Under the pieces are notes generated by a model. It had not been told where the DNA came from. It saw only the letters and a program-made list of their open reading frames with translations, and searched no databases. A stretch of DNA of 58,096 bases, counting the filler, from Dugesia japonica (taxonomy: Eukaryota): NCBI GenBank assembly GCA_001938525.1. It is 5 parts of 5 records of this genome, joined end to end, with 100 filler letters (N's around TTAATTAATTAA, not from the genome) between each part and the next. Parts side by side here need not be neighbours in the genome. Positions count along the whole stretch, not along the records: positions 28,680 to 37,458 come from MQRL01209139.1; 4 more parts are not named here. One strand, given 5' to 3'. Below, piece by piece: positions 28,580-51,460 of the stretch; the first letter of the stretch is position 1, and every line of letters begins with the position of its first letter. The position numbers and the translations under genes were made by a program.

Positions 28580-28679
28580 NNNNNNNNNNNNNNNNNNNNN
28601 NNNNNNNNNNNNNNNNNNNNNNNTTAATTAATTAANNNNNNNNNNNNNNNNNNNNNNNNNNNNNNNNNNNNNNNNNNNN
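28580..28679. other. Artificial contig spacer
   Basis: 44 N + TTAATTAATTAA + 44 N. Confidence 0.95.
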
Positions 28680-29327: not shown

Positions 29328-31653
29328 CCCTAATGTGAACCCCTTGGTACCGAGTAATGAGTTTGGATAGTTTATTTAATTTCTGGTTTGCCATTTTAAG
29401 TATTCCTCTATCAAGTTGTTAGACATACATTATTGTAATTTTTATTAACTGGGGTAGAGATTCCATAGATATTTTTTGGTTGTATAAAATACACCTCCTT
29501 ATGGGCATCCAATTAAACTAATATGAAAACATGAACCTATTTTCAGGTTTAAAACAAATAGTTTCTTGTATCTGAATAAAAAAAAGTAAAATATATTTTT
29601 AGATAACATATTTTTATTCTTAATTAATTACGATAACCACATTTTGTAATAGCAAACAGATGTTCATCGCATACCGAAACGTTACAATAAACTCCCTTGC
29701 AGGTTTGACCTGAGAAATCGATGGTATGTTGATTAGCTACTCCAACAGATATTCAATTGCCAGTTCGATCGTAAAATTTCTATTTACATTTGCCGTATTC
29801 GCTTTTTTATTTATTTTTGGCATAGCCAATTGCTTTGCGAGGTCTTTTTAAAAGTTTCGAAGTGCTCTGGTAATTTTATTCCAATTAGAGTTATTTTCAT
29901 GGAAACAAACATATAGCTGCTAGAGCTGCTACATCGATTTTATTGAAAAAAGGCAACTGGCCACCTTAGTGTTCGATGTTTTGTGATGTAGCTACTTAGC
30001 ATTTGATCCATAGTGTCAACCCCACCTTTGTACAGTGATATTATTCAATTACCTCCGATTTTCTTTTGGAATCCTATGACACATTTTTAATACAATGTGT
30101 AGTAGACAGAAATATAACCGCTTTGTCTTTTTCCCGTAAATATGAACACAACATAATATCATCATCAAATATACAAATATCTTTTGCATAAAAAAGCTGC
30201 TATTTAAATCTTGTTCGATTAACCTGTGCAGATTCCAATTTTTTAACTACGACTACTTCATCATCGTCTGACAAACCACTTTCAAGATCCCAATTGATTT
30301 TAATATTATCATTATTATTTTGATCATGAGCATCTTCAACATCAGAAGAGATAAATGTTCTTCATCATCAGAATTTTCATATTCACTTAAATCACTACTA
30401 CAATAATAAAGCTCATTCAAATATTGTTTGCTGTCGCTCATAAGTCATTTGGTGAAAACTTATTTTTCCACTCCTCATTTTTACTAAAAAATTAATATTT
30501 ACATAACCAGTTTTCAAAATTAATTATGAAGACACTAGTAATAATTTGCACAATGCCTTCTATGAAGTTTCAAATAAAACTAATTANNNNNNNNNNNNNN
30601 NNNNAATAAATCATTACATCATGTTCAAATAATTATTTAGAATAATAAAATATGATTTACCGTTAGATAAAGTTTTGCTCATATTAATTTTTTTCTTTTT
30701 ATTTATGACTTCTAATAAAATATAATTATATTATATGTTGGGGAAAACCAAAATCAAGATTAACACACAGCAAACAAATCACATGCACATATTTATATAA
30801 CATAAAGAACAAACGGAACACCCGGTACCTCAACATCCAAGATCAATCAACCAACCAATTCAAAAGCATCCAATACTCCAACACCCAACAATTGATCCGA
30901 AATCTAATTGATTTTATCAATCCGAACCTTAATTGATTTTCTTAATTGTAAATTTTTATTATTATCAATCTGAACTTTAATTGATTTTTATTTAATTGAT
31001 TTTTATTATTATGTTTTATCATTTATTTGATTTGTATAATTTATCACAAAATTTTTAAACAATGTATATTTGGAATTTTCAAATCATGTACAAAATTTTT
31101 AATATAAANNNNNNNNNNNNNNNNNNNNNNNNNNNNNNNNNNNNNNNNNNNNNNNNNNNNNNNNNNNNNNNNNTGATTGATGTTTAATGGAATTTTTATA
31201 ATATTTTGGTAAATTTATGGAAAATTTTTGTAAGTTATATTTATTTTTGTATGATGATCATTTAAATTATGCATGATATTTTGGTATAAATAGTGATTGA
31301 AATTTTAGTCAATCACCCTCTTTTTCTTTAAGTCATACAACAGTTTGAATTGTCTTTCAATTCACAACTGGTACTAAAAATATTATCGCCTGTAATTTAA
31401 ATATAATTTGAATTTAAAAACGTAATTTTATTTTTATTCTTTTATAAGGTCTACTATATACTATATTTATAATCTATATTATCTATAATAAACATATTAA
31501 GGCTTATAGGAATTTATTATAGACTTTAATATATTAGGATTTTTTACAATTAATAGTTAAACTCACGCACTGTTGACTTATCTTGGCCAAATCCCCCAAG
31601 GTATCTCAACATATAAAACACTTGTTACCCGGGTACCACGGGTAACCTGTGAT
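29328..31653 (-). mobile_element. piggyBac transposon, internally deleted, containing a solo LTR
   Basis: TTAA-CCC left end. Inverted subterminal motif ACCCCTTGGTACCGAGTAA vs rc ACCCGTGGTACCCGGGTAA. Transposase remnant at 29640-30441: acidic N-terminus, KGGVDTMDQMLSSY..RTLRWPVAFF, Cys-rich C-terminus (C..YCNVSVCDEH). Confidence 0.85.
30736..31611. mobile_element. Solo LTR (876 bp)
   Basis: TGTTGGG...CTCAACA termini with a 4-bp TATA duplication on both sides. A related sequence starts at 36987. Confidence 0.7.
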
Positions 31654-31959
31654 TTAAGTTTTTTTCATTCCTACAGAAGCATTAAACGAACTTGATTAAA
31701 TTTATTATTAATTGTATTATTAAAAGAAAATATTGTTACTTTAGTTAGTTAATTAATGATATTCATATTTATATTCGATTTATAGTAAATAAATCACTAG
31801 ACCATACACAACAAGTAATGTAAGAGTTAGATAATTATTTAGAAATTAAAGTTAGGTTCTATTTCATATTATGAATCTAAAAGCATAAATTCATTTAACA
31901 TAAAATATGTTACTCATTTAAAAAATTTATCATTTTTAAAAATGCAAATATTTAATAAA

Positions 31960-32117
31960 TTCCTGAAAGACTGGTCGAAAATTCGGATAACTAGTAAAAA
32001 AAAAGAAATACAAAGAAAAAAACAACATTTTGATCGAAGTTTTTAATTAAATGAAATTCCAAATGCGATCAATGATTAAGTTCAACAATTATTCTTGCTA
32101 CAATTGTAATTGTATTA
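31960..32117 (+). repeat. Diverged copy of the Penelope-like hammerhead repeat
   Basis: TTCCTGAAAGACTGGTCGAAA...TTTTGATCGAAG...GATCAATGATTAAGTTCAACAATTATTCTTG, colinear with the other copies. Confidence 0.55.
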
Positions 32118-34137
32118 AATTGTATAAATACTATTAAATTTAGTTTAAACAATTAATTTTGTTAATTATTTAACTTCATTAAATGTTTTTTAAAAATTTG
32201 TCGGGATAAAACCCAATCATGTTTATCAACATCAACTAAAAAGAACGGATGAACGAAAATTATAAATAAAATGTGAATATAATGTAAATTTAATTAAATC
32301 AAAGTATTATTTGTACAACTACTAGCAATTATCAAAAAAAACCCATAAATTATTCAAAATGAAGAGGAAAGATCAATAATGTCGATTTTTTCTGAAAAAA
32401 TAAAAGAAAGTCACCAGAAACAGAAATAAATTCACAAAATATAAACTCAAAAATATCAAAATATAGCCCAATTAATTTACATAAATCCATCAATCAGGAT
32501 AGAGTGATGGTTTCAGAAAGGGTATAAAAAACCGAGATTTTAATCAAAACCATCCTTAAAAAAAGAAAGTTTAAGCGCTTGTCTTTTGATAATTTCAAAT
32601 TAAAAAAAATCGTCAATCTATATCGAAATTAATTCGAAGTTAAAGAAATTTAATTAACAAACGATTCTCCTATACAACAGATAATCGTCAAAAAAGTTTT
32701 TGCAAGCCAATTATTGTGAATTTCAGTAAAACTTCTGGAGATTAATCTTGCATCTATCTCTACCAGGAAACTCTATTATCCAGTAAATTGCCCAATTTAG
32801 TTTTTGCAAGATNAATTATTGGGAATCATCAGATCCAGTTTAACCAGCAGTCTATTAGAAAATTGCTCTATTCGGTTAATCCTCACTCAGCATCTCTCAC
32901 TGTGGAAAATTGTCCAATTTAGTTTTTGCATTATCAATTGTTGGGAATTAACCAACATCTGTTTCACCTACGGCCCGGTCGAACATTTGGAGTCGAAGTG
33001 CAGATTGCTGCCAGCTTTGATGGGCAAATGGCTACCACAACAAACTGGTCCGGGCATGTGAAATCTTACAAGAGAAAATCGAAATGCTCGCATTCGAAAT
33101 GTCGCAGGTCAGGTGGCAAAACGTCGAATATACCGAGTAGTAAATTAGATCAGACTTATTATGCCTCAAATCAAATTTTTGTCTATTGTTTGATTTGTAT
33201 TAGTTATGTTATCATTATTGGAGATTCATTGAATTGTTCATAAATCATGGACATATTTGTCCTGAAGTGATTTTTATTATTAAAATATTTGTTCAATTTA
33301 TGATTTGGTTATTATGATAAAACTATCCACCTAGTTTTACTATTGGCTCAGTGATTATTAATTATTGCCTGTTTCGTCTTATTTAAAATAAGTTTTTGTT
33401 GGAGGATTGTGTTGATCTAATGGTACTATTTGCCAATAACAGGAACGAGGAAAGATAACTGTTTCCAGTGGGTATCTTCCCTGGTTCGTGTTATAAAACG
33501 GAAAAAATGATAGGCCTCAGGTCGGAGAAATCGTCTCAAAATTATCAATTTGTAGTACTAAATATTATTAAGATTTCACTAATATACTTATTTATTTTGA
33601 TTGTTATTAATTGTTGGTCATTTGTTAGATAGTAAATAGGAGACGAAACCTCAAGCGGCCTCGATATATTTGGCCCTATATTGACAGTAATGGAACATAT
33701 TATATTGAATGGTCAGAGGTTCAGAGCATGATCCACCAGGAGAATAATATTGTGCCGAGGCAACTTCAGATTTAAATGCCGATTTGGAGATCGCGAATCT
33801 GCGAATTGCTATCCTGGAGGAAAATGTGCGGCTCCTCACGACCCAACAGGGGCATGTCACAGAGATGGCTAAATGCTTGTGTTTTTAAGGTATGCCACTA
33901 GACGAGATCGATTGGATTTATTTAATTATGGAAATAATCGAATATGAAGACCGTCGAGATTCAACTCAAGTTATTCAAAATCCTAAAAACCCAACCAATA
34001 TTATAAAATCATTCTTTAAACCAGCCGTCAGTAACCAATAACTCGCGGATCACCAAGTCAACAGAAAATTATTTCAAGTCATCCACTTAAGTTCCGCAAA
34101 TAAAGTATAATGTATAAAAATATATTATAAACAAACA

Positions 34138-34730
34138 TGAAACGAACATTTTGAGAAAATATAAATAATAAGAGGGGGTTATTATACATGATTATTAGAA
34201 TTTACAAAGTATTATCATGCAATAATGTATCTGAAGCTATAAATATGTAAAAAAAACAATGTTTATTAGAAAATTTAAAATCTGAATATGGTGAAAATGT
34301 AAATGCTAAATTTACAAAATTTAAACATTCATTTTTTGATGTTTATGATGATATTACACACGTATTTATTGGTGCAATTGGAATTGGAAAAACTACATTT
34401 TCATTAGCACATTTTAGAAAACCTGTACTTGTTACTAATCTACAATCATTTAATTTAGCAACTGAAAATAATAACGGTATAGTAATTGATGATATAGATT
34501 TTAGAAAGTGGCCTGTAACTGAACTTATTCATTAATATGATTGCGAATATGATTATATGATAGATTTTAAATACAGTACAGCACGTATTCCAAAACGAAT
34601 GCCTCGTATAATATGTATCAATGATGTAGCTATGCTTTATCCATATGATATATTAAATTGTACAAAGGAAGCACTTGATCGTAGGCTACAAATTCATATA
34701 TATTTATATTTAAATTTATTTAATTTAGCG
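34138..34730 (+). pseudogene. CRESS-DNA-virus Rep-like SF3 helicase (endogenous viral element)
   Basis: Walker A GAIGIGKT (34371), AHFRKPVLV, Walker B GIVIDDIDF, W P..IH, KYSTARIP..MPRIICIN (motif C), EALDRR arginine finger. One in-frame stop at 34533. No HUH nuclease motifs recognisable. Confidence 0.85.
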
Positions 34731-34851
34731 AAAGACGAGCAAATTAGACAATCCGATGACTCAAGTAAAGGAACGTACGTCTCATATTCTAGATCGGAGC
34801 AATCGATTACCAAATCTGCCCGTGGATATGGACGCATAAACTGTCCTCAGT

Positions 34852-35510
34852 GTGATCATGAATTATCGCTTAGTATTTATTCTAATGTTAAAAAATATGA
34901 ATTTTATGGATTATAATAAATTTGTAGTGTATGGCCAGCTTTGTAAATTTCTTACGGATTTTATTAGTAATGATACTTTTAATTTTAATAACCAATTACA
35001 TAACATTCTTGACAATTTTATCCAAAAACATAATCTCAATATTACGGAAATATTTAATCCCCTCCATTATCGTCTGTGTGCAATTGGTCTTGTACTATTG
35101 CTTCAATCCGGCAAAACAACTTGTATATTACTTGATGGCACCTCTAATGCAGGCAAGTTCCTTTTCATGAAGATATTCAGTGCAGGTTTATATGTAGGAA
35201 GTTTCTCATTAATTCATATGCAATCTGAATTTTGTTTCTATAATCTTATAAATAAACAAATTGGAATTGGAAGAAGTAACATTAGATGCAAAAAATGGTG
35301 ATTATTTTAAACAATTAATTGAAAATTCTCCATTCTTTCATGTCGGTGTTAAATATGGACCTAAAGCACAATTAAAACCAATGCTATTTGGAACTATGTT
35401 TCCAGTGCCAAAGAAGCTATATTAAATCGATGTATCTATTTACCTTGTACTCATGAAGTAACTCTTGATATCAATGTTAATCTTAATAATTATTTAGAAG
35501 AATTTAAAAA
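34852..35510 (+). pseudogene. Parvoviral NS1 / papillomavirus E1-type SF3 helicase (endogenous viral element)
   Basis: GKTTCILLDGTSNAGK Walker A (35137) and SEFCFYNL; after frameshifts, IGI.EEVT Walker B, YFKQL, VGVKY, EAILNRC. Confidence 0.85.
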
Positions 35511-36986
35511 AGTAAAAATTGATATGTTAAATAGTTTTTTTATTATTTATTATTTTATAAGTAAAGTTATATTATAGAAATATTCTATATTTAAACAACC
35601 ACATACATACACAAATAAATCAACAAATCAGAACATTGAGTGATAATATATGTAATTAATCTATATTTAAACATTCTTTATAAAAAAAAATAAATGCTGA
35701 ATCATGCCCGTGGTTCGGTAGAACCTTGAGGTGTAAATACTGAAACTATCCAACGAATTTTATAAACTAAATCAAATGAAATCGAGTTTTTTCACAATAA
35801 CATTAAATATCAATAATTCTTTCTCATTTAAAAATTTGATATAAAGAGAATGATAAAAATAAAAACCGAAAGAATGCTCCATTAAATATTTCAACCTAAA
35901 TCTAGTTTCATTAAACAGTTCCACTTGATTCATTCAAGTGTTTCCAAAATGGGAAGAGTAAAATATTTCTCAAAAAGTAAGCTAAATTAAAAATTATAAT
36001 TCGGTTATTTTATTGGAAGAACTATGTAGATTATATAAACGTTTAGCTCCTATAAAAGTGTATACAAAGTTCAGATTCAATTTGACAGGGTCAGAAACGA
36101 AGTTTTTGATAAGTATATTATGCTGAGTTTCAGAGGAGAGTCGGTAATTTTAAATCCAGAGTGCTTTACGATTTCCTATAATTTAGAGTCTTATTCTGAG
36201 CTGGTACGAGTTGAAATAGTTTTCCTACGATCTCCCATCTAAGCAAATATGTTTGTGGACAATCTCAATATAAACTTATTTATCCTAATTACTTCGCCTG
36301 CTTTCATAGAAGTTTAGAAAATGAATTAGTTAAATAAAAGATTAGATTACCCTCGTGATAATGAAATATTCGATTATGCAATGAAATACAATTAATTCGC
36401 AAATGTATTTGAATGATTGAATATGAGATTGATAGTGAACCGAATTGTTATGGTTGAGTTCGTTATTATCGTTTTTTGAATGATTTTTTATTGCCTATTA
36501 AGTGTGGTCCAAACTTGATGAGACATGAATTCATATCATGTAACCATAAAAACAGGCAATAATTAAAAGAATTAATTAAAAATGTTTGACTGAAATTCAT
36601 TCAATCAAGAAAATTAAATAAGAAAACCAAGGGCTTATAAAATATACTTTTCAGTTAAATCATACTATTATTTATACTAAGACTAAAAATGAAAATATTA
36701 AAAGAAAAATATACAAAAATCGTGAAACAAATTAATGAAATATCATAAACCAAAAAAAGGGAAATAAAGTCACTAACAAATTTATTAAGTTAGAACGCAA
36801 TTCAGCCCCAGCAACAGATAATTTTTAAAAAAAGAATTGACGAATGGTCAAAGTTATCAAGAAAAAATAAAAAATATTATGAATTATAATTAAAAAACAT
36901 AGATAAGATCGTCAACTTATTAAGTAAAATCAAAATGGAAGATAATGAAACAAACCAATTTGAAATAAAATCAAACCATAAAGTTG

Positions 36987-37458
36987 TGTTGGGGAAAGCA
37001 GACCTTAAAAAATCAAATAAAAGACAACACAATCATACATTGCATAAAACACAAACATACAGAACACAACAAACAGCCAACCATTCAATTAAGGAATCCG
37101 ATCGATTCAATGCAATCCAATCAATCCATTCCATCAATCCACTATTCAAAGATGAAGAAAAACTAACAAAGTTATTTTGATAATACCCTATTGTGTATCG
37201 AGAATAACTTATAATTGTGACTTGTTTGTATTTTTATATTTTTATCGAATTGTATAAATCAAATTGTAATACAATTTTTTCAAATTTTTATAAATTATCG
37301 ACAACTGTAAAGTTCAATTGACAATTGAAAACTGTAAAATATTTAATCGATTATTTACAATAAAATTTGATCAATTAATCGATTTTGGATAATTATTAAA
37401 GGGTAATTTTATTTAATTTATGTAGCAATTTTATTTAATATTTATGATTTTATGAAAA
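36987..37458. mobile_element. Truncated LTR related to 30736-31611
   Basis: Begins TGTTGGGGAAA followed by the same CA-rich tract; cut by the contig end. Confidence 0.45.
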
Positions 37459-37558
37459 NNNNNNNNNNNNNNNNNNNNNNNNNNNNNNNNNNNNNNNNNN
37501 NNTTAATTAATTAANNNNNNNNNNNNNNNNNNNNNNNNNNNNNNNNNNNNNNNNNNNN
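37459..37558. other. Artificial contig spacer
   Basis: 44 N + TTAATTAATTAA + 44 N. Confidence 0.95.
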
Positions 37559-38455
37559 AAAATAGATTATTATTTTTATCAAATCCAATATTATCAGTCT
37601 TTAATCCTAGTATTATGAATCTAGGTCTATATAGTTGGTTTCCTAATTTTACAGAATAATTATTTTCACTCAAAATTGAAATCCTACCTGTTACCCTTTC
37701 CCAGAAGCTTACTTGAATTGATTTATTTGTGGACATTCTTTCTAAATAATTTAATTCTACTTTAAGGTTTAAGGTCCACTCTGAAATGTGAAGTTCAAGG
37801 GTATTAATTTTAATTGTTGCTTTATGATCCTTCTTTTCAAAGAATATTAATTCATCTTGTTAATTTTTTATACAATCCAATTGAATAGTAACCTATTATA
37901 ATTCTGTAAGAAACCAAAAAGAATTTTTAAAGGGTAATAACCTTCATACTGGGTTGAATATAATTTGTTTCTTTTAGTAAAGCTTGAATGATCTATTGTT
38001 CCGGTTTTTACATCTGGTATATACCCATAACTCATAGTACAAGGTAACCTATAAATGTCATACATTATTAAATTTAACATAGTAAAAGCTATCCCCACAA
38101 TTTCCAGATCTTCAACTGTTGATGATCCANNNNNNNNNNNNNNNNNNNNNNNNNNNNNNNNNNNNNNNNNNNNNNNNNNTTTCAATCTCATGGAATTGAA
38201 TAAATTAGGAAACCAATTATTCTCTAGTGTAACATCTGTTTCGGTAGCATCTAAATAATTAATTCCAACTTTGTAATACAACTTTGAATTTCCAATGTCT
38301 AGGGGATTGGTTTATTGTAGTGATTGAAATGTTATTTCCCCAGACTTGTTTAAATTGTTAATTGAACCACTAGTTGGACTAATCTTCAATAAATCATTTT
38401 TAGTTTGTAAGTGTAGAAATTTATTGTTTGCCTCTAACTTCATGTAATAACCATT
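37559..38455 (-). pseudogene. Polinton/adintovirus double-jelly-roll major capsid protein (lineage A), decayed and truncated
   Basis: NLNKSGEITF, LYYKV, LENNWFPNLFNSMRL, GSSTVEDLEIVG..TM, YPLKILFGFLQNYNRL, RPRFIILGLKT match the pattern of Polinton capsid proteins. Confidence 0.7.
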
Positions 38456-38571
38456 TTTCTAAAACATTTATTTAACCTTTACCCTTATATTTATCTACTT
38501 TGTCCATTTGATGATTTTTGTTCAATGGATATCTTTTTATCTTTTAAATATAACAACAAGCGACATCATTT

Positions 38572-39096
38572 CTAAATCTTGCTGGAACGGCTTATTCGTG
38601 TTATTTTTTCATTTAAATTTTTATGGTTTATTTCTGTTTCACTAAATAATTGTAACCATATATCAGTAGATAATTTAATATTATTCTTTGCAATTATGGT
38701 TGATTTAAAGCCGGGCATTACTACAGTCTTTGGTTTTAATTCTAATTTAGATTGTTCCCTTAACTTGTTATGTTCATCTCTTTCTTTCTGTAGTTGATTT
38801 TTAAATTCATCTAATATTTTACATGCTTCTTCATGTTTTTGTGCAAAATTTTTCATAAGTAATCCTCTACAATCCGATTCTGTGCTTTTACATAAAACAA
38901 TAGTAATTAATACTTTTTTACCTTCGCTATCTTTACATTTCTCAATTTTAGTCAAAATCTCTTTCATTATGTTTAACCTCTCATTAACAAACTCTTTTGT
39001 AATTGGAATTTTACTAAACTTTTCAACTTCTTCTATAATCATATTTGTAACATCCTCTACATTTTTTAATGTCTCAAATAAAATATTTAATGTCAC
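38572..39096 (-). CDS. Uncharacterised helical/coiled-coil ORF (174 aa), probably Polinton accessory
   Basis: Uninterrupted K/E-rich ORF directly upstream of and co-oriented with the capsid gene. The start codon is uncertain. Confidence 0.55.
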   Translation of the reverse strand: MTLNILFETLKNVEDVTNMIIEEVEKFSKIPITKEFVNERLNIMKEILTKIEKCKDSEGKKVLITIVLCKSTESDCRGLLMKNFAQKHEEACKILDEFKNQLQKERDEHNKLREQSKLELKPKTVVMPGFKSTIIAKNNIKLSTDIWLQLFSETEINHKNLNEKITRISRSSKI

Positions 39097-39175
39097 AGAA
39101 TAGTTTTCTTTACTGCTTGCAATTTTCTATACTAATAATTTGAGCTAATGAAAATATGCTTACGGTAAGGTAAGA

Positions 39176-39343
39176 AAACAGTAAGGTATGGAAACAGTAT
39201 GGATACAGTAAGGTATGGAAACGGTATAAGAACAGTGTCGAAACAGAATAGAAACAGTATGGAAACAATATGGAAATAGTATGGAAACAGTATGAAAACA
39301 GTATGGAAACAGTATGGAAACAGTATGGTATGGAAACAGTATG
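39176..39343. repeat. Tandem 11-bp array (AAACAGTATGG)n, about 14 units
   Basis: Direct reading; lies between two divergent ORFs. Confidence 0.9.
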
Positions 39344-39367
39344 ATAATTATTTTCAAACTATAATAA

Positions 39368-39757
39368 ATGGCTTGTATTGATTCTAAATTTTATCATATT
39401 TTATCTTCTTATGATTTTATCAATCATTCAGTATCTCGTTTTGTCGACAAATACAATTTAAGTAAAAAATCTGTAAGGAAATATCTAAACATGTATAAGA
39501 TTCCATATAATAAGAAAAATAGAGCCATAAATCAAAATAGAAGTGTTGATGGAACATTTTCATCTTTGATAAAACGATTTGAAGAACCTAAAGAAATTAA
39601 ACCTATTGAAAATAAAGATCCAATACAAAAATTTATTCAAGATACAACTAAAACTAAAAATCAGAAACATAGACATGAAAACAAACCTAATATTGATTAT
39701 TCCAAAATATCTAAAAAAGAATTTTTTAATGAACTTAAAAATAATATTATTATATAA
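39368..39757 (+). CDS. 129-aa basic protein with an N-terminal helix-turn-helix-like segment
   Basis: Intact ATG-to-stop ORF; SVSRFVDKYNLSKKSVRKYL fits an HTH pattern. Confidence 0.55.
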   Translation: MACIDSKFYHILSSYDFINHSVSRFVDKYNLSKKSVRKYLNMYKIPYNKKNRAINQNRSVDGTFSSLIKRFEEPKEIKPIENKDPIQKFIQDTTKTKNQKHRHENKPNIDYSKISKKEFFNELKNNIII

Positions 39758-39963
39758 TAAACCCATCACTATAACTCACCACTTAAACCTTTTTTACCCT
39801 TTCTTTGCTGGACTTTTTTATAAAAACTTTTAAAACCACCTTTTCTTCTTTGTTTCTGGTTTAATATTTTCGTTTAATATTTTAGTTTAATATTTTTTAT
39901 CGATTTTCGTTTCTTTTATAAGTTTTTTTATTCTGGGAAAAATCATCGATCATCGATACTTCA

Positions 39964-40136
39964 AGTAGTAGGGAAATGATGAGTTAGACCCCCTCTCCTA
40001 ATAGCCTCGCTCGGTTTCTACGGTTTTTTAACTAAAAAGTGGTGTTTTTCTCACAAATCACTATCCACCATTTTCCGCTTCCAAAACAGGCCCTTGTGGC
40101 TATGGGGGGGGTCTAACTCGTCATTTCCCTACTACT
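39964..40136. mobile_element. 173-bp element bounded by Polinton-type AGTAGT terminal inverted repeats
   Basis: AGTAGTAGGGAAATGATGAGTTAGACCCCC ... GGGGGTCTAACTCGTCATTTCCCTACTACT (29/30 match). Confidence 0.75.
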
Positions 40137-41150
40137 GATACTTTATTGTATATTAAAGTAAAGGTTTTTGATAAGACTGGTGAAGATTTGACTGACACTC
40201 ATGATGCAATTCCGAGTAATTATATGTTACATANNNNNNNNNNNNNNNNNNNNNNNNNNNNTAATAATGTCAAAATTGAAGGGGGAAATGGATCTTATCT
40301 TCACAAAGAAATAATTTAAACTATAATAAATTATAATGGTGATAGTAAAAATAATTCTTGCAGCAATGGGATATAGATCAGAAGCAGATAGAAAACGTCT
40401 ATTGTAAAATCAAAACAATTGGCTCTATGAGGTTCTTTGCAACTCGATTTCATGGATCAACCGAAATACCTTATTCCTGGTGCCAGTGTTCGTATTCGAT
40501 CGAAACGATCATCTTCAAAGATTTATTTGGAATCTGCAGCTAATGAACCTAAAGATGTATTACTAGATGCAAAGTTAATGGTTAGACGTATACAAGTTGA
40601 ACCATTAGTACTAACTGCTCATCAAATAGGACTAAAAAGCAAAATTCTGTTTATTCAATAAGAACCAAGGAAGTCGTTGCATTTGCAATTAGTAAAGATA
40701 GTTCATTGTTTTATAAAGAACAAATTTTTGGTGATCGACAATTACGTATCTTTATTTTGGTTACATTTCAAAGAGGTGAACAATATAATGTTAGGTAAAG
40801 AATCTTGAGTTCAACATTTCAAAATTTAGATGCTGTTTCCGTTTTCTTGATTAAAAACACTGATTTTTGAGAAATATATACTCAATATTTTACAAACGAT
40901 AATTATGCTACAAGATAAATGCAATCTATGGTAAGAAATATGAGGTATTTGGATAAGAATATGAATTGCGGAATAAAACTTAGTAATTTTAAGAATAATT
41001 ATCCCTTATTTACATTTTTTCTTCAGAATCAATTACTTCAACAAGTAAATTTGAGATTGGATATCATGTTTGCCAAAGCTTTAACAACATCAGTATATGT
41101 TGTCATGAAGAAATTCAAATTAAAGACAATGGAGCAGTATTGGTGTAAAC
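40137..41150 (+). pseudogene. Polinton/Maverick major capsid protein (lineage B), decayed, 5'-truncated
   Basis: DTLLYIKVKV, PSNYMLH, LQLDFMDQPKYLIPG.SVRI, LLDAKLMVRRI.V...VL.AH, F..NYPLFTF, NLRLDI.FAKAL. Confidence 0.85.
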
Positions 41151-42185
41151 AATCCAATAAAGTAAGAGTTATTTTTTAATTTATTTTTTAATTTATTAGT
41201 TCTATTCAGATTAAACGGAGTGCATCAAAGTTAGTTGGATCAGTATTTTTCATTAAACATTGCCTTAATTGAGAATACTCATACAACAAATCTATGTGGA
41301 GAACATTAGATGGCTGTTTACTTGAGAGACAACACTAATTATTATAATGAAGCTCCATCACAGATGAAATTTTCATTTGCTTGTATTTGTAGTATACAAA
41401 ATATATGTTTTATTGACAAAAAATCTTGGTCATTTTCTTAAATAATACTAAGAAAAGTACTCTTTTAATTAAACTTATTAATATTTATATTATTTATTTA
41501 TATTTTGCATGGTTATTATGTAAGCAATACACTTATAAACCATATACAGTTGTAAAACAATTTACTTATAAGTTTTTGTTATATAAATAATGCAAGAAAT
41601 AAACAAAATTATTATTCAAATCTATTTATTAAACAATAAAACAAAAATAATAATAATTACTTCAATTCCTATTAAACAAATAAAATAACACAGCGGATGC
41701 AAATAGAGTTACAACAAATTTAGTTCTCTATTGGCTCTTCAATTCTTCCTTAATTTCTTCGATGAATATTGATTGGGAAATGAATTCAACATAGTCACGT
41801 TTACTCAAAAGACCATTGTCGATCCTGCTTAGAAATTGAATTTCATCAACTGGTAATTTTATCTGTTAATTTTTTAATTTTTCTTTTGACTTGATTCATT
41901 GTGATAATAACTTTGAATCGTAAAAGTGACTTATCTTACAAAACCTGCGGTCTATATACTTGCTGCGAATCACACATACTCTTTATTTGTTAGTTTCTAT
42001 TGGTCGTTACATGTTTTAAATGAAGTGAATGGTTATTACTCATTTTGATTTATATGATTGGGTGTAATTTGTTTTAAATGATATGATTTGTTAGATAAAG
42101 TCATATATTCATGAACGTGACGAAAGCATGCAATGTGCATGACGTGAGCATGCATTTTACATGGTTACCTCATATTACACGGTGA

Positions 42186-42690
42186 TTGTGTAAATAATAT
42201 ACTCATAAATCCTATAATACATGGTTTTGTGTAAATAATACAAGGTAACCATGCAAATAGTACATTCATAACCCTATACACTCATTAACAATATGTAAAT
42301 AATACACTTATTAACCCTATATAATTATAAAAATATTTTCATATAGGTTTTTATATAGACTTATTAGATATATATTGAAAGGTTCCATAAATTTATTATT
42401 TCTATGAAAAGTGTTCTATGCTTTTATCATTTTGTATAGAAACGTTCCCGGCTAATATGTTTTGTTTAGAAAATTACTTTACTAATATGATTTTATTTGG
42501 AAAATTACATCATCAATATGTTTTTTATAAAAGAATTGCGTAGTTAATATGTATTTTATAAGAAAATGTCATCAATGATATGTTTTACTTTGGAAAATTA
42601 CATCGCCAATATGTTTTTAAAGAAAAATTGCATTGTTAATATGTTTTATTATAGAAACTTGTAATAGTTAATATGTTTTTATAGAAAAAG
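42186..42690. repeat. Two degenerate minisatellites (GTAAATAATAYACTCATAA.CCCTATA-type; ~31-bp AATATGTTTT..GAAAATT units)
   Basis: About 3-5 units at 42186-42322 and about 8 units at 42454-42690. Confidence 0.7.
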
Positions 42691-43239
42691 TTATTTGTTT
42701 TAATCATTTTGTAACAAAGGTTTTAATTTAAATATTTTATTTTTGTAAATATCACAAAAACTTTCCTCTTTGAAGTTCTTTAATAGTTATATTTTATCAT
42801 GGTAATTAAATTTAAATTTTAGACTGCCCAATATCTTTGCAATAATATCAAAAATATCAATATCTTGCAATAATTTAAAGACTGTTCAAAATGAATCAAT
42901 ACAACCAAATATCATACATAAATAGTAAAGACTCAAAAAAAGTCAATACTGACCAATCTCTTGCAAAAAATAAAAACTGACCATATAATACAAAATATAA
43001 GAACTACCAAAATGTTTTTTGTTAATGAGTTCAATAGAGATGCAACTCAGATGCAACACAGGTGCAACATACACTGAAAATCACGTTCCTGGGAATTTTT
43101 ATTGACTTTTTAGTAAACCTTTAATAAATGCAATATAGGATGTAAATTGTACTGCGGCGCCACTATTTCTCTACTAGATGTGTTAAATAGTTGGTCTTTT
43201 ACCATAAGCTCTAATAATATTTCTAGTTTAATATCCTTA

Positions 43240-45120
43240 CTCTCCAAGAAAGACTATCTGTGTCTCCTTCCACTATATTGATCTTACATTTTTCTTCTCT
43301 ACCATATTTTTCCTCGATATACTGAAGCTAGTAGATTCTCAATTTCAACAAATCTAATATTTTCTGTCCTTTATCTCAACACATATCTCAACACATATTC
43401 TTTATTCAACTGAAATGCTATTACGTCGTTGTTGATTTTGATTGTTTTCCTAAACTATGGATTTCATACGTAGGTTAATAGATTATTAGCTGAATTTCAT
43501 GTTTTAAGATTCATTCTTTTCTTTAGATTTTCGATGGATTTAACATTTAGTGCATAAATCAGCAGTTTATAATAGTTTTTGTTTAATTCTGTTTTTATCA
43601 ATACACTGTTTTTATCTATGTAATCTTTGAAAATAGGTGCCTGAGTGAAGTTTACTGCACTATGAACATGTGTTACTTGCACACCTAAATGCAAAAAAAT
43701 TTAATAAAAATTTATATGAATCAATAAATTAAATTGATATTTTTGATTGATGAGCAATCAGACAAAGTTTTTCTGTGGTTTTTGGAATACATGAAATATT
43801 TCATTTTGTGAATTTGACTAAGTTTATACTTGAGAATATGATGGAGATTGTGAAACACTACTGGTAACAATTTGATTATTTTTCTACATAGATTGCATTT
43901 GTTACAATCAGCACCAAAGTATTTCCCTGAGAAATGATTATGATCACGAACTGTTTTGCCTATCATCTTTTCACATAAATGGCATATTTTAACTGCAGCA
44001 AAGACAATTTCTTCAGCTCTTGATATATTCATTTTCTTTCGTCCATTTTGAATATGGTATTTATTACTTGTAATTTCTTATAATTTTTTCATAAACTTTT
44101 AAATACAGTCTTCTCAATAAACTGACTGAATTTCGCAACGTTATTACATATGTTTACTAACAATAGTCTAGCTGAAATTGGAAGATTCTTTTGAAAATAT
44201 TTGTCATATTTCAACGACACTGATTCAAAATCATCGTAAATGGCAAACAGTGAAGTTATTATTTTCCAATGATTTTTAAACTCCAATTTTGGATCATTTG
44301 GTGTGGTGTACATTGTGGTATTTGTTTGAATCTTGCTGCACATAGGTTCGTGTTTTTTGTAAGTTATACTGTTTTTGAACCCATTGAGACAATTGGTGCA
44401 CCATGTTGATTGAATTCCTACACTATAGTTTTTTTGTCTCGGTTTATTAGATAATTTTAATTAATTACTAACTTGTAATGAAAGTTTTCACCGTTTTTCA
44501 ATAGTAAAAGATTAATTATTTGCCCATCTTCTACTTTTGATCTATGATTAATGTAAAAATTTGGATGCTTCATATCAACATCATAATCTTCGATTAATTG
44601 AAAGTTCTTTGAGAAGATATTGGTGATATTTCCTGGATTTTGTTGCCCAAAAAATTGGAATATTTGCCAATTTCAAAGGCATATCCTTTTAATCAAATGC
44701 TAGTTCAGACGTGTATTTTTTATATTTTGCTGGTTAATGCTTATTTCTTTCTTCAACTATATCTTGTTTCAGAATAGCAAGAATGCTGTATATAAAACAT
44801 AGATTGTCATTGTTTTTGACGTTAACAACGGTTCTTTTTTTTAAAGTTTTTTGTGTTGGAATGAAACTACTTACTGAAAGTCTACGGACATTGCTGAATT
44901 TAGTTATTTTGAAATTAGTTTTCAAAATATCTTGAATATCTAGTTTGAACCAATTTCATTTCTAATCGTTATCTTCTCATTTAACTATTTAATCCTTTCT
45001 TCAAAAAATGTTTCAACCAAAGAAACTACTTGATTTGATATTCTACAAGTTTTAATATCTTTATCTCTTAGAAAGTCAACAGTATTATTATATTAGTCGT
45101 TGTTTGATCTAATACTGGTT
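43240..45120 (-). pseudogene. Polinton protein-primed DNA polymerase B remnant 1 (N-terminal region fused to a palm fragment; large internal deletion)
   Basis: SSFIP..L....VVNVKNNDNLCF.YSILA; FKNHWK....FAIYDDFES; CHLC..VRDHNHFSGKYFGA.CNKCNL; PVVFHNL; FTQAPIFKDYIDKN; YKLL..ALNVKSIENLKKR; GDTDS. Confidence 0.9.
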
Positions 45121-45676
45121 TCCGTCTTGCTATCTTAGTTGGGGGGATGGAGTTTATAATGTGTTAATAAATGTTATGCAATAAATCTTTTTTAATGAAA
45201 ATTTGTTTTTATTTTTTCATTTTAAACATAATTTTTAATTAAACATTATCTTTTTAATTACCTGCTTCAATTGTTGGTAATAATTTAAGTTCTAGTACAA
45301 AATACTTTTTATCAATATTTGTCAACATTTCTTCTATAATAAGATCCAAATTCATTGTTAATAAAACATCCTATTTCATTTTGTTTATATTTAACATGAA
45401 AATGCATACACAATGCATGTTTTGGTTATGTTTATAAAAAGAACTTAATAAATAAATAATAAGAAATTATAATAGCATTTTTTCTTAAAAAAATATTTAC
45501 ATTTCACAATTTTAAGTTCTAAGGAGAACGTGTTATACTTTCACAATGTTTTTGTTTTCGTTTTCTTTTTTCATTATAATCTAAATATAAATAATTAAAA
45601 TGACAGTTAAAAACAAATAAATAAATACCTTTGTTTGAGGTTTTGTTCTTGACGAGGCTGGACCAAATGTACGATT

Positions 45677-46680
45677 TTAAGGGGAAAAACTATTTAATAG
45701 TATAGTGCCATATGGGACACTTTTATATTTGTCAACCCTAATGAGCTTATCGTCTGTATTTGTCAGTGCTAATTTATTAGACTTAATGCTATACAAATGA
45801 TGATTTTTTATGCTTATCCTAAATTGTTTCACTGAGACTGATTTGTTTACATTATAACAGTCAAGGTAAGATTGATGAGAACTTTCTGTGTTTTCAATGT
45901 TGTCTTTTGCTCTCATGCTTCTCTAATCGCTGAGCAGGCTATAACATTCCAGCCTCAAAAATACCCATTCTTGATACTTTAGCATTTATTCTCATCTTTA
46001 AATTTCCCCATTACTGAATTTATGCTGTTACAATAAAGGGTACGATCTTTATCATAATTTAAAGTATCAAGTAACTGATCTGTTATAGTTTTTAATTTAA
46101 TAATATTTATTTCTAGAAAAAAACTATATGTATCACCAACTACAATATTAATTTTACAATTAAATTTCTTCTTCTTAAACTCAATGTACTGAAGTTTGTA
46201 CATTTTAATTTTGAGAGGTCAAGTACAGTTTGCCCTATGTTGCTCGGATGATCAAAACAAACTTTATTCTTATTGAGAATAACAGCTATTAAATCATCAT
46301 CAATTTTTGTGGTTTTCTTAAATCTGGATTTTGATGTGTATGTAATCAACTTTTTCACTGAATTACATAAGCGCAGATTAATCCCATTCTTAAGATTCTC
46401 AACTGACTGTCCATGTAAATTGTAGTTTAAAAGTATATGATAGTTTTCATCAAATTCTGTATCGCAATTTGAATTGTATTTGTATTAATGTAATTTTCAA
46501 AAATTGAGGCCTGTCTAAATTTAACAACTCTATAAACCTCTGTTACTCAAACCCCTAAACTTAAGTACATTGGCAATAATCTCCAGTGCACTTGGCGAAG
46601 TGCATTAGCATTAATTTTCTCATTTTCTAACCGGAGGAGCTCCTATTATTTGCTGCAACCAGTAAATCGTTCAAATAATC
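45677..46680 (-). pseudogene. Polinton pPolB remnant 2 (C-terminal palm/thumb)
   Basis: SVENLR, FDHPSNIGQTVLDLSK, GDTYSF, LDTLNY, MGKFKDE, HHLYSIKSNKLAL..TDDK, SVPYG. Confidence 0.9.
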
Positions 46681-46685
46681 GTGTA

Positions 46686-47445
46686 CAATATCGTCCATAT
46701 GTTTTGAGCCACCTTATAAAAATGCACATAATAGTAGATTAATTAAATTAATTGTTTTATGATTTGAAATATTTTAATTTAGATATATGGTGATGTTAGC
46801 TTTATATTTCATTAAAAATTTATTATCTCAAATAATTATTGTATAATTAATAAAATACATTTGTTATAATAAGCCGTTTTTTAAAAGTTTTGATATTATT
46901 TAAATACATAAACTATTTTAAAGTATTCATTAATTTTTTAGGTAAAAACTATATTTACAATATTTTACTCATTGTTACCTAATATATTCTTATAATTTTA
47001 GAAATAATTTAGTTAAACATGGCTCGGATATCGATAGATATTAGGAAATTAGTCATTTAAAAATTGAAAGAGGGTTTGTCTCAGTGGAAAGTTGCAATTC
47101 TACGTAATAATTCAAGGTATGCTGTACAACATATTATACTCAAGACAAAACAACATAAAACATTGGGAAATCTATTTAAAAGTGGCCGAAAACCGGAAAA
47201 TACACAAAGATCTGAAAGATCACTTATATCAAAGAAATATCCCCAGAAAACAGCACGTCAGCTTTTGATTGATTAGAAAACAAGCCTAACTTCTTCAGTT
47301 AGTATTGTCAAGCGTATTATGAGAAATTGCGGCTTGTTTGGATTTATTGCAGTAACGAAACATTTATTATATGAGCGACAAATTAAGAATCGCTTAAAGT
47401 GTTGCAAAGACTATGGTAACCTGATTCATTCTTTATGGAATGACG
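46686..47445 (+). mobile_element. Tc1-type transposon 5' part
   Basis: TA-CAATATCGTCCATATGTTTTGAGCACC TIR-like start interrupting pPolB. MARISIDIRKLVI..LKEGLSQWKVA, SGR, PQKTARQL, R.K.CK form a bipartite HTH region from 47020. Confidence 0.8.
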
Positions 47446-47678
47446 TCAGATTAGGATAGAACTATATATACAATAAAATCGCAGTATAGTAAGTGTATTG
47501 ATGATGATTCCACTGTATCAGCACAAAACAGTTATAGTTTGGGTGATGACATCACTGTGTCAGTGCATTCCAGTTAGGGTTTGGAATCGAAACCTTGGAT
47601 GAAATTCTGATAAAACGAAGCACTTTACTACAGTAATCCTTTAAACAATGTATATGCAGTATTTTATTTGGTATATAA

Positions 47679-47689
47679 TGGTATCAGAG
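47679..47689 (+). other. Possible tRNA-iMet primer-binding site (TGGTATCAGAG) following a ~235-bp LTR-like segment
   Basis: Canonical PBS 11-mer; no LTR pair or gag detected. Confidence 0.3.
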
Positions 47690-48330
47690 TTTCTTTCTTA
47701 TTAATTAAATATTATTATTTAATTTTAGTTATAACTATTATTATTAAAAAGGTTCAAATGCAATACACCCACTTCAGCGAGAACGAAGCATTTTTCGGAA
47801 CTAAGCTTTTGGATTACATATAGACAACTTTCAATTCTGAATCAAATGCTACCAAATTCAAAATCCTACGTCTATTTTCAGCCAAGCAAAATTTTTAATA
47901 AATCAATTTTGAAATTGAAAGCATTTTCTACTGAAATGTATAAGACTCTACATTTTTCAAACTGCTTTGTCATCGGGTGGACTTGAAGAGGTAGTTTTAT
48001 GCGCTACTATCTACCTACTGTTGTTAATAGTTTTAAAAGTTGGGACTGAATGTATGAAATATGAACTAATATCAATATTTTTGGACTAATTTTATATAAA
48101 TACAACCAAACATCGATAAAACATAGTATAATTTTATATTCACATCTAGTATGTTTATTAAGTCATGTAGAAAAATATAAAGATCTCATAAGGAACATAT
48201 CAATTTTGTTTTTTGGTGGGAAAGAAAGTTAGCTACTATGTTATCAGGTCATTTAATATATTAAACATGTTTATCAAATCAGGATAAATATTTAATCAAT
48301 CTTCATTGACGATTCTATGGTTCTTTCATT

Positions 48331-48430
48331 NNNNNNNNNNNNNNNNNNNNNNNNNNNNNNNNNNNNNNNNNNNNTTAATTAATTAANNNNNNNNNNNNNN
48401 NNNNNNNNNNNNNNNNNNNNNNNNNNNNNN
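48331..48430. other. Artificial contig spacer
   Basis: 44 N + TTAATTAATTAA + 44 N. Confidence 0.95.
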
Positions 48431-48571
48431 GTAACTCATATTTATCAATTTGATTTATGATCATTTTGTTTATACATTTCTATAATTGAAATTTGTATGA
48501 GTCATCTTCTTTGTTCACGTTTTGCACTGTTCTTGCTTCATGTATGTATTGATCATGTCTTCTGCATTGAT

Positions 48572-49004
48572 TTAGTTTTTCCTAATTAAATTATTCAAAT
48601 TAGATATTACAAAATCGACTTGAGGTTGATAATCCAATGTTTTGATTCCAGCAAAGACTAATTTTTTTCTTATGAAAATACATTTACACAGACTTGATTG
48701 AATTTTAATAATTTAGGTTCATACATACATTTAGTTCTTTTTGCTAAATCATATAAATTGATTGAATATCCCATATTGATAACGACTGTATTCGACTGTA
48801 GTTGAATATCTTTGATATCATATTGTAAATATTTTCTTTTCAATGTTTTTTACACCCCATGATTCTACATCTTCTAGATTTGAAAACTACTAAAGTATAT
48901 TTTCCCGTTTTGTCAACAACTTGTGATGGCCTGCCAACTGAAAAATTCATTTTTCTTGTAACCTCTTGTGAAACTTTGCCTCTGTAATTAATATTTTCAA
49001 TCAT
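48572..49004 (-). pseudogene. TATA-binding-protein (TBP)-like gene, intronless, two frameshifts and one stop
   Basis: Manual translation: MIENINYRG...YTLVVFKSRRCRIMGCKK / IQLQSNTVVINMGYSINLYDLAKRTKCMYEPKL..FNQVCVNVFS* / KLVFAGIKT. This matches both TBP repeats (ALIFSSGKMVCTGAK; IQNMV..D..F.IRLE.L..YEPELF..LLIFVSGKVVLTGAK). Confidence 0.75.
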
Positions 49005-49047
49005 AATTATATCAATAAATTTTTAAAAAGTGAATATATACATATAC

Positions 49048-49706
49048 ATGAACAATAATTTAATTGATACATTAAAACAAACAATAATTGAATAAAGAAA
49101 TGATGCTGTTTATCAAATTGCCGGTCGAAGTGAAAGTGGAAAAACTCTATTTGTGTGTAAATTATTGAAATCAAAACTATTCAAATCAAAATTCAACAAA
49201 ATATATTGGCATAGAGGAGCTGATGAAGAACATGGATTAACTCAATTCAAATTCTGTGATATAAAAATGAAAATTATAAACGGTTTTTTTGAGAATTAGA
49301 GCAAGAGATTAACTAAAGGTGGTGTGATTGTTGTTGATGATTTGTATCAGGAAGCAAACAAAAAAATGACTTTAACAATTTATTCACCAAGATATCAAGA
49401 CATTGTAATGTGACTGTAATATTTATTACTCAGAATCTATTCCATCAAGGAGGTGGCCATAAAACTCGTAATTTAAATATACAATATTTGGTTGTATTTG
49501 AAAATCCAAGAGATCAAACAGTTGTTGATTTTCTTGCAAGACAAGCATATCTAAGCAATAGGCAATTTCTTTTGGATTCATTCAAAAATGCAACAGTAAA
49601 TCCACATGAATATCTTTTTATGGACTTTACATAACAATGTTCAGATGAACTTAGAGTGAGAACTGATATTTTCAATCCAAATGGTGTTATCTTATATAAA
49701 CAATAA
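49048..49706 (+). pseudogene. Polinton A32/FtsK-like packaging ATPase
   Basis: IAGRSESGKT Walker A, VIVVDDL Walker B, LFTKISRH.NVTVIFITQNLF, LNIQYLVVFENPRD, P.EYLFMD, LRVRTDIF. Confidence 0.93.
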
Positions 49707-50049
49707 ATGTAATTTCTTATTTCATTTACAAATGTCGAAATTTACTAAACTAATAGTTGATCAACTCAAGAATAAAATGATTAAATAAGATAAAAATCCA
49801 AAAGATATTTAATAAAGAAGACAACCAACAAGTCGGCAAAGATTGTTATTAAAAAGAAGAAACAATNNNNNNNNNNNNNNNNNNNNNNNNNNNNNNNNNN
49901 NNNNNNNNNNNNNNNNNNNNNNNNNNNNNNNNNNNNNNNNNNNNNNNNNNNNNNNNNNNNNNNNNNNNNNNNNNNNNNNNNNNNNNNNNNNNNNNNNNNN
50001 NNNNNNNNNNNNNNNNNNNNNNNNNNNNNNNNNNNNNNNNNNNNNNNTC

Positions 50050-50310
50050 TAGAGCCAAAATGTTGCAACCATTTTCATCATTTGTTGTTGACGATTTACT
50101 AGAGTTTATTGTAAACATAGTTCGTAGTAATGCAGTTATAAGAAAAGTTAGAAAACAAGCATAGGAAAAACATAAAAGATAATTGCTTTTACTTGAACAT
50201 ACCAAGAATGAAAAATTAAATTTAGAAAATATTATACAAACAACATCGCGGCTTTATCGCTACATTACTACCTATTGTATTGGCTTCATTAGGTCTAACA
50301 AATTTTTCAT
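50050..50310 (+). pseudogene. Small conserved Polinton ORF (basic, C-terminal LLPI motif)
   Basis: VNIV.SN, KHKR.L..L and LLPIVLASL, lying between ATPase and integrase; decayed. Confidence 0.45.
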
Positions 50311-50380
50311 AAACAATATATACCAAATTTGATATAAACAATGGGAAATTAAGAATCATTACCTAGAATTAATCTAAGAT

Positions 50381-51410: not shown

Positions 51411-51460
51411 CTTACATGAATATCAGTATCTCAAATAGTAAATTCAACAAAGAAGAAAAT

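What the first reader, a model, noticed from the sequence alone, without database searches (positions are those of the whole stretch)
34138..35510. Endogenous virus-like element with two tandem unrelated SF3 helicases (PEVE-like)
Seen: a CRESS-Rep-type helicase (GAIGIGKT/IDD/RR) is followed within ~150 bp by an NS1/E1-type helicase (GTSNAGK/EE/NRC). A short CPQC-containing segment lies between them, all on one strand and one contig. Established (from memory, to verify): the extrachromosomal element PEVE of the planarian Girardia tigrina was reported to carry a circovirus-Rep-like and a papillomavirus-E1-like helicase, and is otherwise an orphan. Inference: this is a chromosomal fossil of a PEVE-like group of small DNA viruses, which would imply germline integration and a wider family.
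Basis: partly seen in the sequence, partly recalled or inferred. Interest (0 to 1): 0.78.

Follow-up and report, generated by a model that had tools for sequence, protein, structure and literature searches.

The report
Dead fossil of two-helicase planarian-type virus
A broken piece of a small DNA virus related to the planarian element PEVE sits in an animal chromosome with both of PEVE's helicase genes side by side; an integrated relative (PIVE) was reported before, so this adds a compact gene layout to a little-studied group rather than a new kind of virus.

Summary
Observation confirmed. Helicase A (34206-34721) is a CRESS-type Rep helicase (888 hits, best E 5e-31). Helicase B (34897-35577) is a short, nuclease-less SF3 helicase in three frame pieces. 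PEVE's two segments were retrieved and named. A matches PEVE Rep (38%, E 3e-16) and B matches PEVE's small-segment helicase along its length (E 3e-12). Two trees group A with PEVE Rep at 92/92 and 94/90, just under the star threshold. One contig from another run spans both genes at flank depth, so the pair is chromosomal. The copy is dead: two stops, two frameshifts, no nuclease domain, no capsid, no terminal repeats, no RNA over A. The 'orphan' premise is wrong: an integrated relative, PIVE, with both helicase types is in print (PMC3198968). What may be new is the layout: the two frames overlap by 20 nt, whereas PEVE keeps the genes on separate segments. The host and PIVE's own layout could not be checked. 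The scan had no earlier finding on this.

The parts
33081..34143 (.). High-copy repeat of unknown type directly upstream, where the Rep nuclease domain would be expected; limits approximate; not shown to belong to the viral element
   Evidence: Summed contig depth 389-4242 per bin in run X1 against about 11 in the right flank; no Pfam family in six frames; no Rep nuclease match
34206..34721 (+). Relic of a CRESS-type Rep: linker helix, oligomerisation part and SF3 helicase; 5'-truncated (no HUH nuclease); in-frame stops at 34248-34250 and 34533-34535
   Evidence: 888 hits E<=0.001; relatives carry Viral_Rep or Gemini_AL1_M; tblastn span; PEVE Rep 38% over 92 aa, E 3e-16; the 34206-34247 helix alone is not significant
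34371..34394 (+). Walker A of helicase A (GAIGIGKT)
   Evidence: aligned with invariant G/GKT columns
34722..34916 (+). In-frame tail of the Rep frame with CPQC (34842-34853); 37% GC against 25-26% in both helicases; weak likeness to PEVE ORF3L
   Evidence: local score 45, reached by 9 of 3000 shuffles; BLASTP reports no alignment
34897..35577 (+). Relic of a stand-alone, nuclease-less SF3 helicase of PEVE small-segment type (E1/NS1-like), about the length of PEVE's 227-aa protein; three pieces, frameshifts near 35265 and near 35390; start codon inferred from the alignment
   Evidence: PEVE helicase residues 22-123, 126-161 and 172-203 match the three pieces in order (third piece not significant alone); 29% over 140 aa; Atlas features D5_N/DUF5906 0.91-0.92
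35137..35157 (+). Walker A of helicase B (GTSNAGK)
   Evidence: aligned with PEVE's Walker A
35578..37440 (.). Right flank at about single-copy depth; no terminal repeat found
   Evidence: Contigs 35503-37018 (X1) and 35310-36489 (X4) run on from helicase B

Best explanation
A dead chromosomal fragment of one virus-like element of the PEVE/PIVE group, which carried both helicases. SHOWN: both genes match PEVE proteins; they lie in the same order and strand as in PEVE read across its shared repeat; the frames overlap; the copy is chromosomal and broken. INFERRED, how the live element worked: a small ssDNA virus whose HUH-Rep nicked the origin and drove rolling-circle or rolling-hairpin copying. 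Its second, nuclease-less SF3 helicase served as a separate motor, most likely (about 55%) to pump DNA into preformed capsids as AAV's Rep40/52 do, otherwise as an E1-like replication helicase. A DNA form was captured into a repeat-rich chromosome region by Rep nicking or by repair of a break. The nuclease end was then lost where a high-copy repeat now sits, and both genes decayed. The present copy makes no working protein.
For: Both helicases match one 7.6-kb element: Rep E 3e-16, helicase E 3e-12, shuffles at most 27.3 bits; names. B matches PEVE's protein outside the motifs and in length, yet has no real match in the PDB, Pfam or phages (best 32 bits), against 63.5 bits for PEVE. Trees: 6 of 65 rows at 92/92 and 7 of 35 rows at 94/90 hold both the window Rep and PEVE Rep. 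The last 243 nt of PEVE's large segment equal the first 243 nt of the small one, which puts Rep and helicase on one strand 1538 nt apart. The frames overlap by 20 nt, as in compact viral genomes. A 1186-nt contig of run X1 spans 34144-35329 with 0 differences at depth 11.7; the flank contig has 11.4. No RNA depth at 34335-34961 in either RNA run laid. PIVE shows the group integrates. PEVE ORF1L looks like an ssDNA capsid by Atlas features (0.95 Smaco_capsid, 0.92 Denso_VP4). AAV's small Reps lack the origin-binding domain and are needed for efficient packaging (PMC12713660 passages); a profile of B with PEVE's helicase hits E1 (2e-7) and Rep40 (2e-4) in the PDB.
Against: Tree support is below the star threshold, PEVE Rep is a long branch, and the rows were chosen from hits to the window protein. 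Unnamed Reps are closer (42-45%) than PEVE Rep (38%). No tree for helicase B could be built for lack of outgroup sequences. No second locus with both helicases adjacent was found: 1 of 46 fetched loci holds a B-type helicase, PEVE's own small segment, and the DNA around the closest Reps could not be fetched. No terminal repeat and no match to PEVE ORF1L, ORF2L or its 165-aa ORF. The tail between the helicases differs in GC. Only X1 bridges the two genes in one listed contig, and it may be the assembly's own data; X4 leaves 34903-34936 without a listed piece. B has more relatives in the genome than A (variant contigs at 35101-35103: 9-14 in X1, 15 in X4; depth near single-copy at 34335-34543), so B-type pieces may occur alone. 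E1 scores better than Rep40, which does not favour packaging. The packaging role is an analogy only.
Confidence: 0.8

Rival explanations
1. It is simply a decayed copy of PIVE, or a close sibling, the integrated element already in Repbase. This is a narrower form of the best explanation, not an alternative to it; it would make the finding already known.
For: PIVE is integrated, has at least three annotated proteins, and its 1p and 3p group with PEVE's two helicases; the paper calls such sequences numerous in that genome. Related copies exist in the host's DNA. The window is AT-rich (27% GC) and repeat-laden.
Against: The host is coded as 'organism A'. PIVE's sequence and the figure with its layout could not be seen. 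No terminal repeats here, though the figure legend mentions TIRs without saying for which elements.
Confidence: 0.45
2. Chance nesting: a CRESS Rep fossil and an NS1/E1-type fossil inserted separately and ended up adjacent in a repeat graveyard.
For: The window is full of decayed elements. The tail has 37% GC against 25-26%. B-related copies outnumber A-related ones. No second locus with the same tandem was found.
Against: Both genes point to the same rare element. B's only relatives found are PEVE's helicase and one 88% variant. Same strand and order as PEVE, and a 20-nt frame overlap. Depth over the tail is near single-copy, so it is no common inserted repeat.
Confidence: 0.1
3. Helicase B belongs to the decayed Polinton-like element that starts about 1.9 kb downstream, and only A is a small-virus fossil.
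For: DJR-like, endonuclease VII-like and integrase pieces lie at 37.5-51 kb; Atlas features of B's first piece resemble D5-type SF3 clusters.
Against: B matches PEVE's stand-alone helicase from near its start to past motif C; no phage D5-type protein scores above 32 bits; it overlaps the Rep frame.
Confidence: 0.04
4. Assembly artefact, or a co-assembled free virus or episome rather than host chromosome.
For: Short-read style assembly with many gaps; the join between the upstream repeat and Rep (34121-34144) is not bridged by a listed contig.
Against: Zero-difference contigs in two runs of different studies, depth equal to the flank, and a contig that runs about 900 nt past B's stop into the flank; 6 runs of 3 studies hold 0.64-0.81 of the words; stops and frameshifts are the same in those contigs.
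Confidence: 0.03

Closest known systems
[quoted passage not shown]
   Same: A Rep-type helicase and a separate ~220-aa nuclease-less E1/NS1-like helicase, both matching; same order and strand across PEVE's shared repeat.
   Different: PEVE has the genes on two segments, each with 243-nt inverted terminal repeats, intact ORFs, an HUH part and four more ORFs. Here the frames overlap, there is no repeat between or around them, no capsid-like ORF, no nuclease, and the copy is chromosomal and broken. That PEVE is extrachromosomal is from PMC3198968 and recall; the original paper was not held.
PIVE, integrated virus-like element of Schmidtea mediterranea (Repbase Reports 2008, as cited in PMC3198968)
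   Same: Chromosomal, multi-copy, carries both helicase types that group with PEVE's.
   Different: Unknown: sequence and layout not seen. This may be a copy of it.
Unclassified HUH-Reps P0002, P0003, P0005, P0009 (unnamed Logan/ENA contigs, 2.1-4.3 kb) and L046
   Same: Closest Rep relatives, 39-45% identity; same clade as the window Rep.
   Different: They look unbroken and keep a nuclease part, in whole or in part; hosts and neighbouring genes unknown.
AAV Rep40/52 and papillomavirus E1 helicase domain
   Same: SF3 motor domain; PDB hits of the B/PEVE profile. Rep40 also lacks the origin-binding domain.
   Different: Rep40 is a short product of the same gene as Rep68/78, and E1 is one multi-domain protein. 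Here the second motor is its own gene and of another lineage than the Rep.

Membership tests
PEVE (the element itself) | Rep of PEVE type: helicase part | tested here: met
   38% over 92 aa, E 3e-16; trees 92/92 and 94/90
PEVE (the element itself) | Rep with HUH nuclease domain | tested here: not met
   No match upstream by profile or frameshift-aware alignment (15.4 bits, reached by 19 of 150 shuffles)
PEVE (the element itself) | Separate short E1/NS1-like helicase without nuclease | tested here: met
   start and length fit
PEVE (the element itself) | Long inverted terminal repeats | tested here: not met
   None in 31200-37450; best left/right match, a 17-mer, scores 34 against a 95th percentile of 38 in shuffles; PEVE repeat against the flanks not above shuffles (17 to 124 of 300)
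PEVE (the element itself) | Two helicases on separate unique segments | tested here: not met
   Frames overlap at 34897-34916
PEVE (the element itself) | ORF1L, ORF2L and the 165-aa small-segment ORF | tested here: not met
   No tblastn hit better than E 1.1 in the window
PEVE (the element itself) | ORF3L | tested here: inconclusive
   CPQC tail scores 45, 9 of 3000 shuffles, about 0.02 after six ORFs; BLASTP none
PEVE (the element itself) | Extrachromosomal DNA | tested here: not met
   Flank-level depth and contigs into the flank
PIVE-type integrated PEVE relatives | Chromosomal, with both PEVE-type helicases | tested here: met
PIVE-type integrated PEVE relatives | Related copies elsewhere in the host genome | tested here: inconclusive
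   9-15 variant contigs per run at 35101-35103, near single-copy depth over much of A; no genome held
PIVE-type integrated PEVE relatives | Sequence identity and gene order of PIVE itself | not testable with these tools
   Repbase entry and paper figure not available
PIVE-type integrated PEVE relatives | Planarian host | not testable with these tools
   Organism coded; no Rfam hit in the window
Ordinary circular CRESS virus (one Rep, one capsid, stem-loop origin) | Capsid gene and origin beside the Rep | tested here: not met
   The neighbour is a second helicase; one nonanucleotide-like word lies inside B at 35037 (pattern recalled), no capsid family nearby

The most novel reading that the evidence does not exclude
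The fossil preserves a compact, single-segment form of an unclassified ssDNA virus lineage. In it a CRESS-type Rep and a nuclease-less E1/NS1-type helicase are overlapping genes that split replication and packaging between two motors of different origin, served by a smaco/parvo-like capsid (PEVE's ORF1L, not the ORF that GenBank calls capsid). PEVE's two-segment layout would be derived, and the unnamed Logan Reps would be living members, possibly outside planarians.
Probability: 0.2. Interest if true: 0.65.

Novelty: new member of a known kind. Interest (0 to 1): 0.4.

Why it matters
PEVE has stayed unclassified and is rarely cited: 3 papers in the library name it as 'Planaria asexual' and 1 names PIVE with Schmidtea. 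A fossil with both helicases overlapping shows that the pairing is a stable trait of a lineage and not a quirk of one isolate, and it ties unnamed Reps from public sequencing runs to that lineage. If the compact layout recurs, the group becomes a natural test of how small DNA viruses combined Rep, NS1/E1 and capsid modules. If it is a PIVE copy, the gain is small. It is filed under 'integrated PEVE relatives', not as PEVE, since several PEVE features were tested and not met.

Tried and rejected
No whole genome is held, so copies could not be mapped. Pfam, PHROGs and PDB gave no significant hit to either window helicase alone; the nucleoporin hits are noise. Word-indexed searches found nothing for A (63 candidates) or B (558 candidates, longer proteins only); with PEVE's helicase they found 2 of 149 candidates, itself and an 88% variant. 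No plasmid match for A. CPQC tail against a cysteine-rich frame of PEVE's large segment: no alignment. A suspected decayed nuclease upstream was rejected. The 17-nt inverted pair 33358-33374/36550-36566 was rejected as a terminal repeat. The single-sequence model of PEVE ORF1L was useless (pLDDT 31.5), so no fold search was run; phmmer of ORF1L against the PDB found nothing. No RNA holder listed in the run search, which is no evidence; small word shares there may reflect only the upstream repeat. The upstream repeat's frames have no Atlas result. Trees used 65 rows (63 of 150 hits plus window and PEVE) and 35 rows (32 hits, L046, window, PEVE; P0037 dropped for lack of the motif); the one-clade test was not run (one search failed before it). 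A literature search on bidnavirus NS1 found 0 papers. The PEVE paper was not held. Earlier findings of the scan were unrelated.

Full report
1. What is in the sequence. The window is AT-rich (27% GC) and full of decayed mobile elements. No genome is held for it. The finding lies in a stretch without assembly gaps from 31174 to 37458, apart from one N. One + frame carries GAIGIGKT (34371), VIDDID (34482), IICIND (34608) and RR (34680), with in-frame stops at 34248-34250 and 34533-34535. It runs on through CPQC (34842) to a stop at 34914-34916. A second gene begins near 34897 in another frame and carries GTSNAGK (35137). EE (35270) lies in a second frame piece and NRC (35425) in a third, which ends at 35577.

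2. Helicase A. Pfam and the PDB give nothing significant. phmmer against 1.84 billion proteins gives 888 hits at E<=0.001, the best at 5e-31. Of the top 21 hits scanned, 12 show Viral_Rep or Gemini_AL1_M at E<=0.01, most below the curated cut-off. The ten looked up carry no names. Homology spans about 34206-34721. The nuclease domain of these relatives is not found upstream by profile or by a frameshift-aware alignment (19 of 150 shuffles score as high). That region is a high-copy repeat instead: summed depth 389-4242 at 33081-34125 against about 11 in the flank.

3. PEVE retrieved. The Rep alignment's best viral contig was L001, 5699 nt with 243-nt inverted ends. A pattern from that end pulled L045, 1911 nt. 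[quoted passage not shown] PEVE Rep hits A at 38% over 92 aa (E 3e-16). PEVE's 227-aa helicase hits B at 30% over 100 aa plus 37.5% over 48 aa in the next frame (E 3e-12); 100 shuffles reach at most 27.3 bits against 51.6. A profile of that helicase and its 88% variant matches B's three pieces in order: positions 22-123, 126-161 and 172-203, the last not significant alone. The alignment puts PEVE's first residue within one codon of the ATG at 34897. PEVE's helicase scores PPV_E1_C 48 bits and Parvo_NS1 46 bits. B has no real match in the PDB or phages, so PEVE is by far its nearest relative found.

4. Trees. With 65 rows the window Rep sits in a starred five-row clade (97/94) whose sister is PEVE Rep (92/92). 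With 35 rows cut to the helicase and a mixture model, the window Rep, PEVE Rep, L046 and the same four hits form a seven-row group at 94/90, with PEVE on a long branch. This is moderate support from a set chosen by likeness to the window protein. No tree for B was possible.

5. Layout. In PEVE the two helicases are on separate segments. The end of the large segment equals the start of the small one over 243 nt, which places Rep and helicase on one strand 1538 nt apart, with the repeat and a 165-aa ORF between. In the window they have the same order and strand, 175 nt separate the end of Rep homology from B's start, and the frames overlap by 20 nt. No terminal repeat was found, nor ORF1L, ORF2L or the 165-aa ORF. 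The CPQC tail weakly resembles ORF3L (9 of 3000 shuffles, best of all stored proteins compared), but BLASTP does not report it. Its GC is 37% against 25-26% on either side, which fits either a dual-coding viral stretch or an insertion.

6. Chromosomal and dead. Nineteen listed runs of 9 studies hold the stretch or part of it, 18 from organism A; six runs of three studies hold 0.64-0.81 of the words. In run X1 one contig covers 34144-35329 with no differences at depth 11.7, equal to the flank contig at 11.4. In X4, a run of another study, contigs cover 34144-34902, 34937-35329 and 35310-36489. X1 may be the assembly's own data. Two RNA runs, read to about 25% and 6%, show no depth at 34335-34961 and at most 0.55 over B, all from reads that fit only in part. 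Variant contigs at 35101-35103 (9-15 per run) point to other B-like copies; contig depth is not a copy number.

7. Literature. PMC3198968 (seen: term passages, all of section 8, a supplement search and part 13 of 14 of supplement file 1; figures not seen) reports PIVE, an integrated element of Schmidtea mediterranea annotated in Repbase in 2008. Its tree labels place PIVE_3p beside the PEVE large-segment proteins and PIVE_1p beside the small-segment helicase. So integration of this group is known. PMC5618006 (one passage) notes PEVE's E1-like hit. 10.1101/551184, PMC10269781 and PMC6186406 (passages) only cite PEVE. PMC12713660 (passages) describes Rep40/52 in AAV packaging. The PEVE paper was not held, so its own description is recalled. 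Searches found no listing that describes an overlapping Rep-helicase layout or names ORF1L as the capsid; subscription journals, Repbase, figures and bioRxiv supplements were out of reach and may hold this.

8. How it most likely worked. Shown: two PEVE-type helicases, one strand, overlapping frames, chromosomal, broken. Inferred: the live element was a small ssDNA virus. Its HUH-Rep started rolling-circle or rolling-hairpin replication (own knowledge of HUH Reps). PEVE ORF1L resembles ssDNA-virus capsids by Atlas features (0.95 with 205 of 256 features for Smaco_capsid clusters, 0.92 for Denso_VP4), a lead that no structure confirms. A second, nuclease-less SF3 motor then most simply serves packaging, as AAV's small Reps do (about 55%); an E1-like replication role is the alternative, and E1 scores higher. 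Integration by Rep nicking or break repair, loss of the nuclease end at the repeat, and neutral decay give the present state.

9. Verdict. It is not PEVE itself: terminal repeats, two segments, nuclease and other ORFs are not met. It is filed with integrated PEVE relatives of the PIVE kind; there is about a 45% chance that it is a PIVE copy or sibling. The compact layout is the one trait that may be new. Interest 0.4.

Noticed in passing
L001:210-1001 (- strand), PEVE ORF1L NP_476523: Atlas features place it with ssDNA-virus capsids (Smaco_capsid 0.95, Denso_VP4 0.92), whereas GenBank labels the 165-aa small-segment ORF NP_476521 'putative capsid protein'. The real capsid may be mislabelled.
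   Followed up: partly
L001:3818-4944: The Rep match begins about 300 nt upstream of the annotated start and in another frame, so PEVE Rep is probably spliced through a very short intron and longer than NP_476526. P0003 has an in-frame insert at a similar place.
   Followed up: no
window 37503-52059: Decayed Polinton-like element: DJR-like domain at 37503-37856 (E 3.7e-5), endonuclease VII-like piece at 43721-44074 and integrase at 50662-50964; capsid-, polymerase- and ATPase-like pieces at 40431, 46140 and 49341 are recognised from memory only.
   Followed up: partly
window 33081-34143: Unidentified high-copy repeat, 34% GC, with a short coiled-coil-like reading near 33740-33880 and almost no RNA reads.
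   Followed up: partly
window 1265-2532, 4369-6210, 11991-12296, 53599-57754: MULE transposase (E 9.6e-11), mariner-like pieces and gypsy-like reverse transcriptase/integrase frames (the last two by eye), with a 308-aa ORF at 53599-54525 that has no Pfam hit.
   Followed up: no
window 31409-31617 and 32016-32111: Very high-copy short repeats with RNA reads on both strands; the second has three more copies in the window (family D13).
   Followed up: no
window 14560-14659, 28580-28679, 37459-37558, 48331-48430: Gaps of 44 N, 12 letters and 44 N; the one read at 37503-37514 is a TTAA repeat. Probably an assembly spacer between contigs.
   Followed up: no
window 20991-21566 (- strand): 191-codon Ser/Pro/Thr-rich open frame without Pfam hit, possibly a host exon.
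   Followed up: no
P0162, P0159, P0161: Variants of PEVE proteins in a JGI contig (helicase, 88%) and in Logan contigs (ORF3L, Rep), so PEVE-like elements turn up in other public samples.
   Followed up: no
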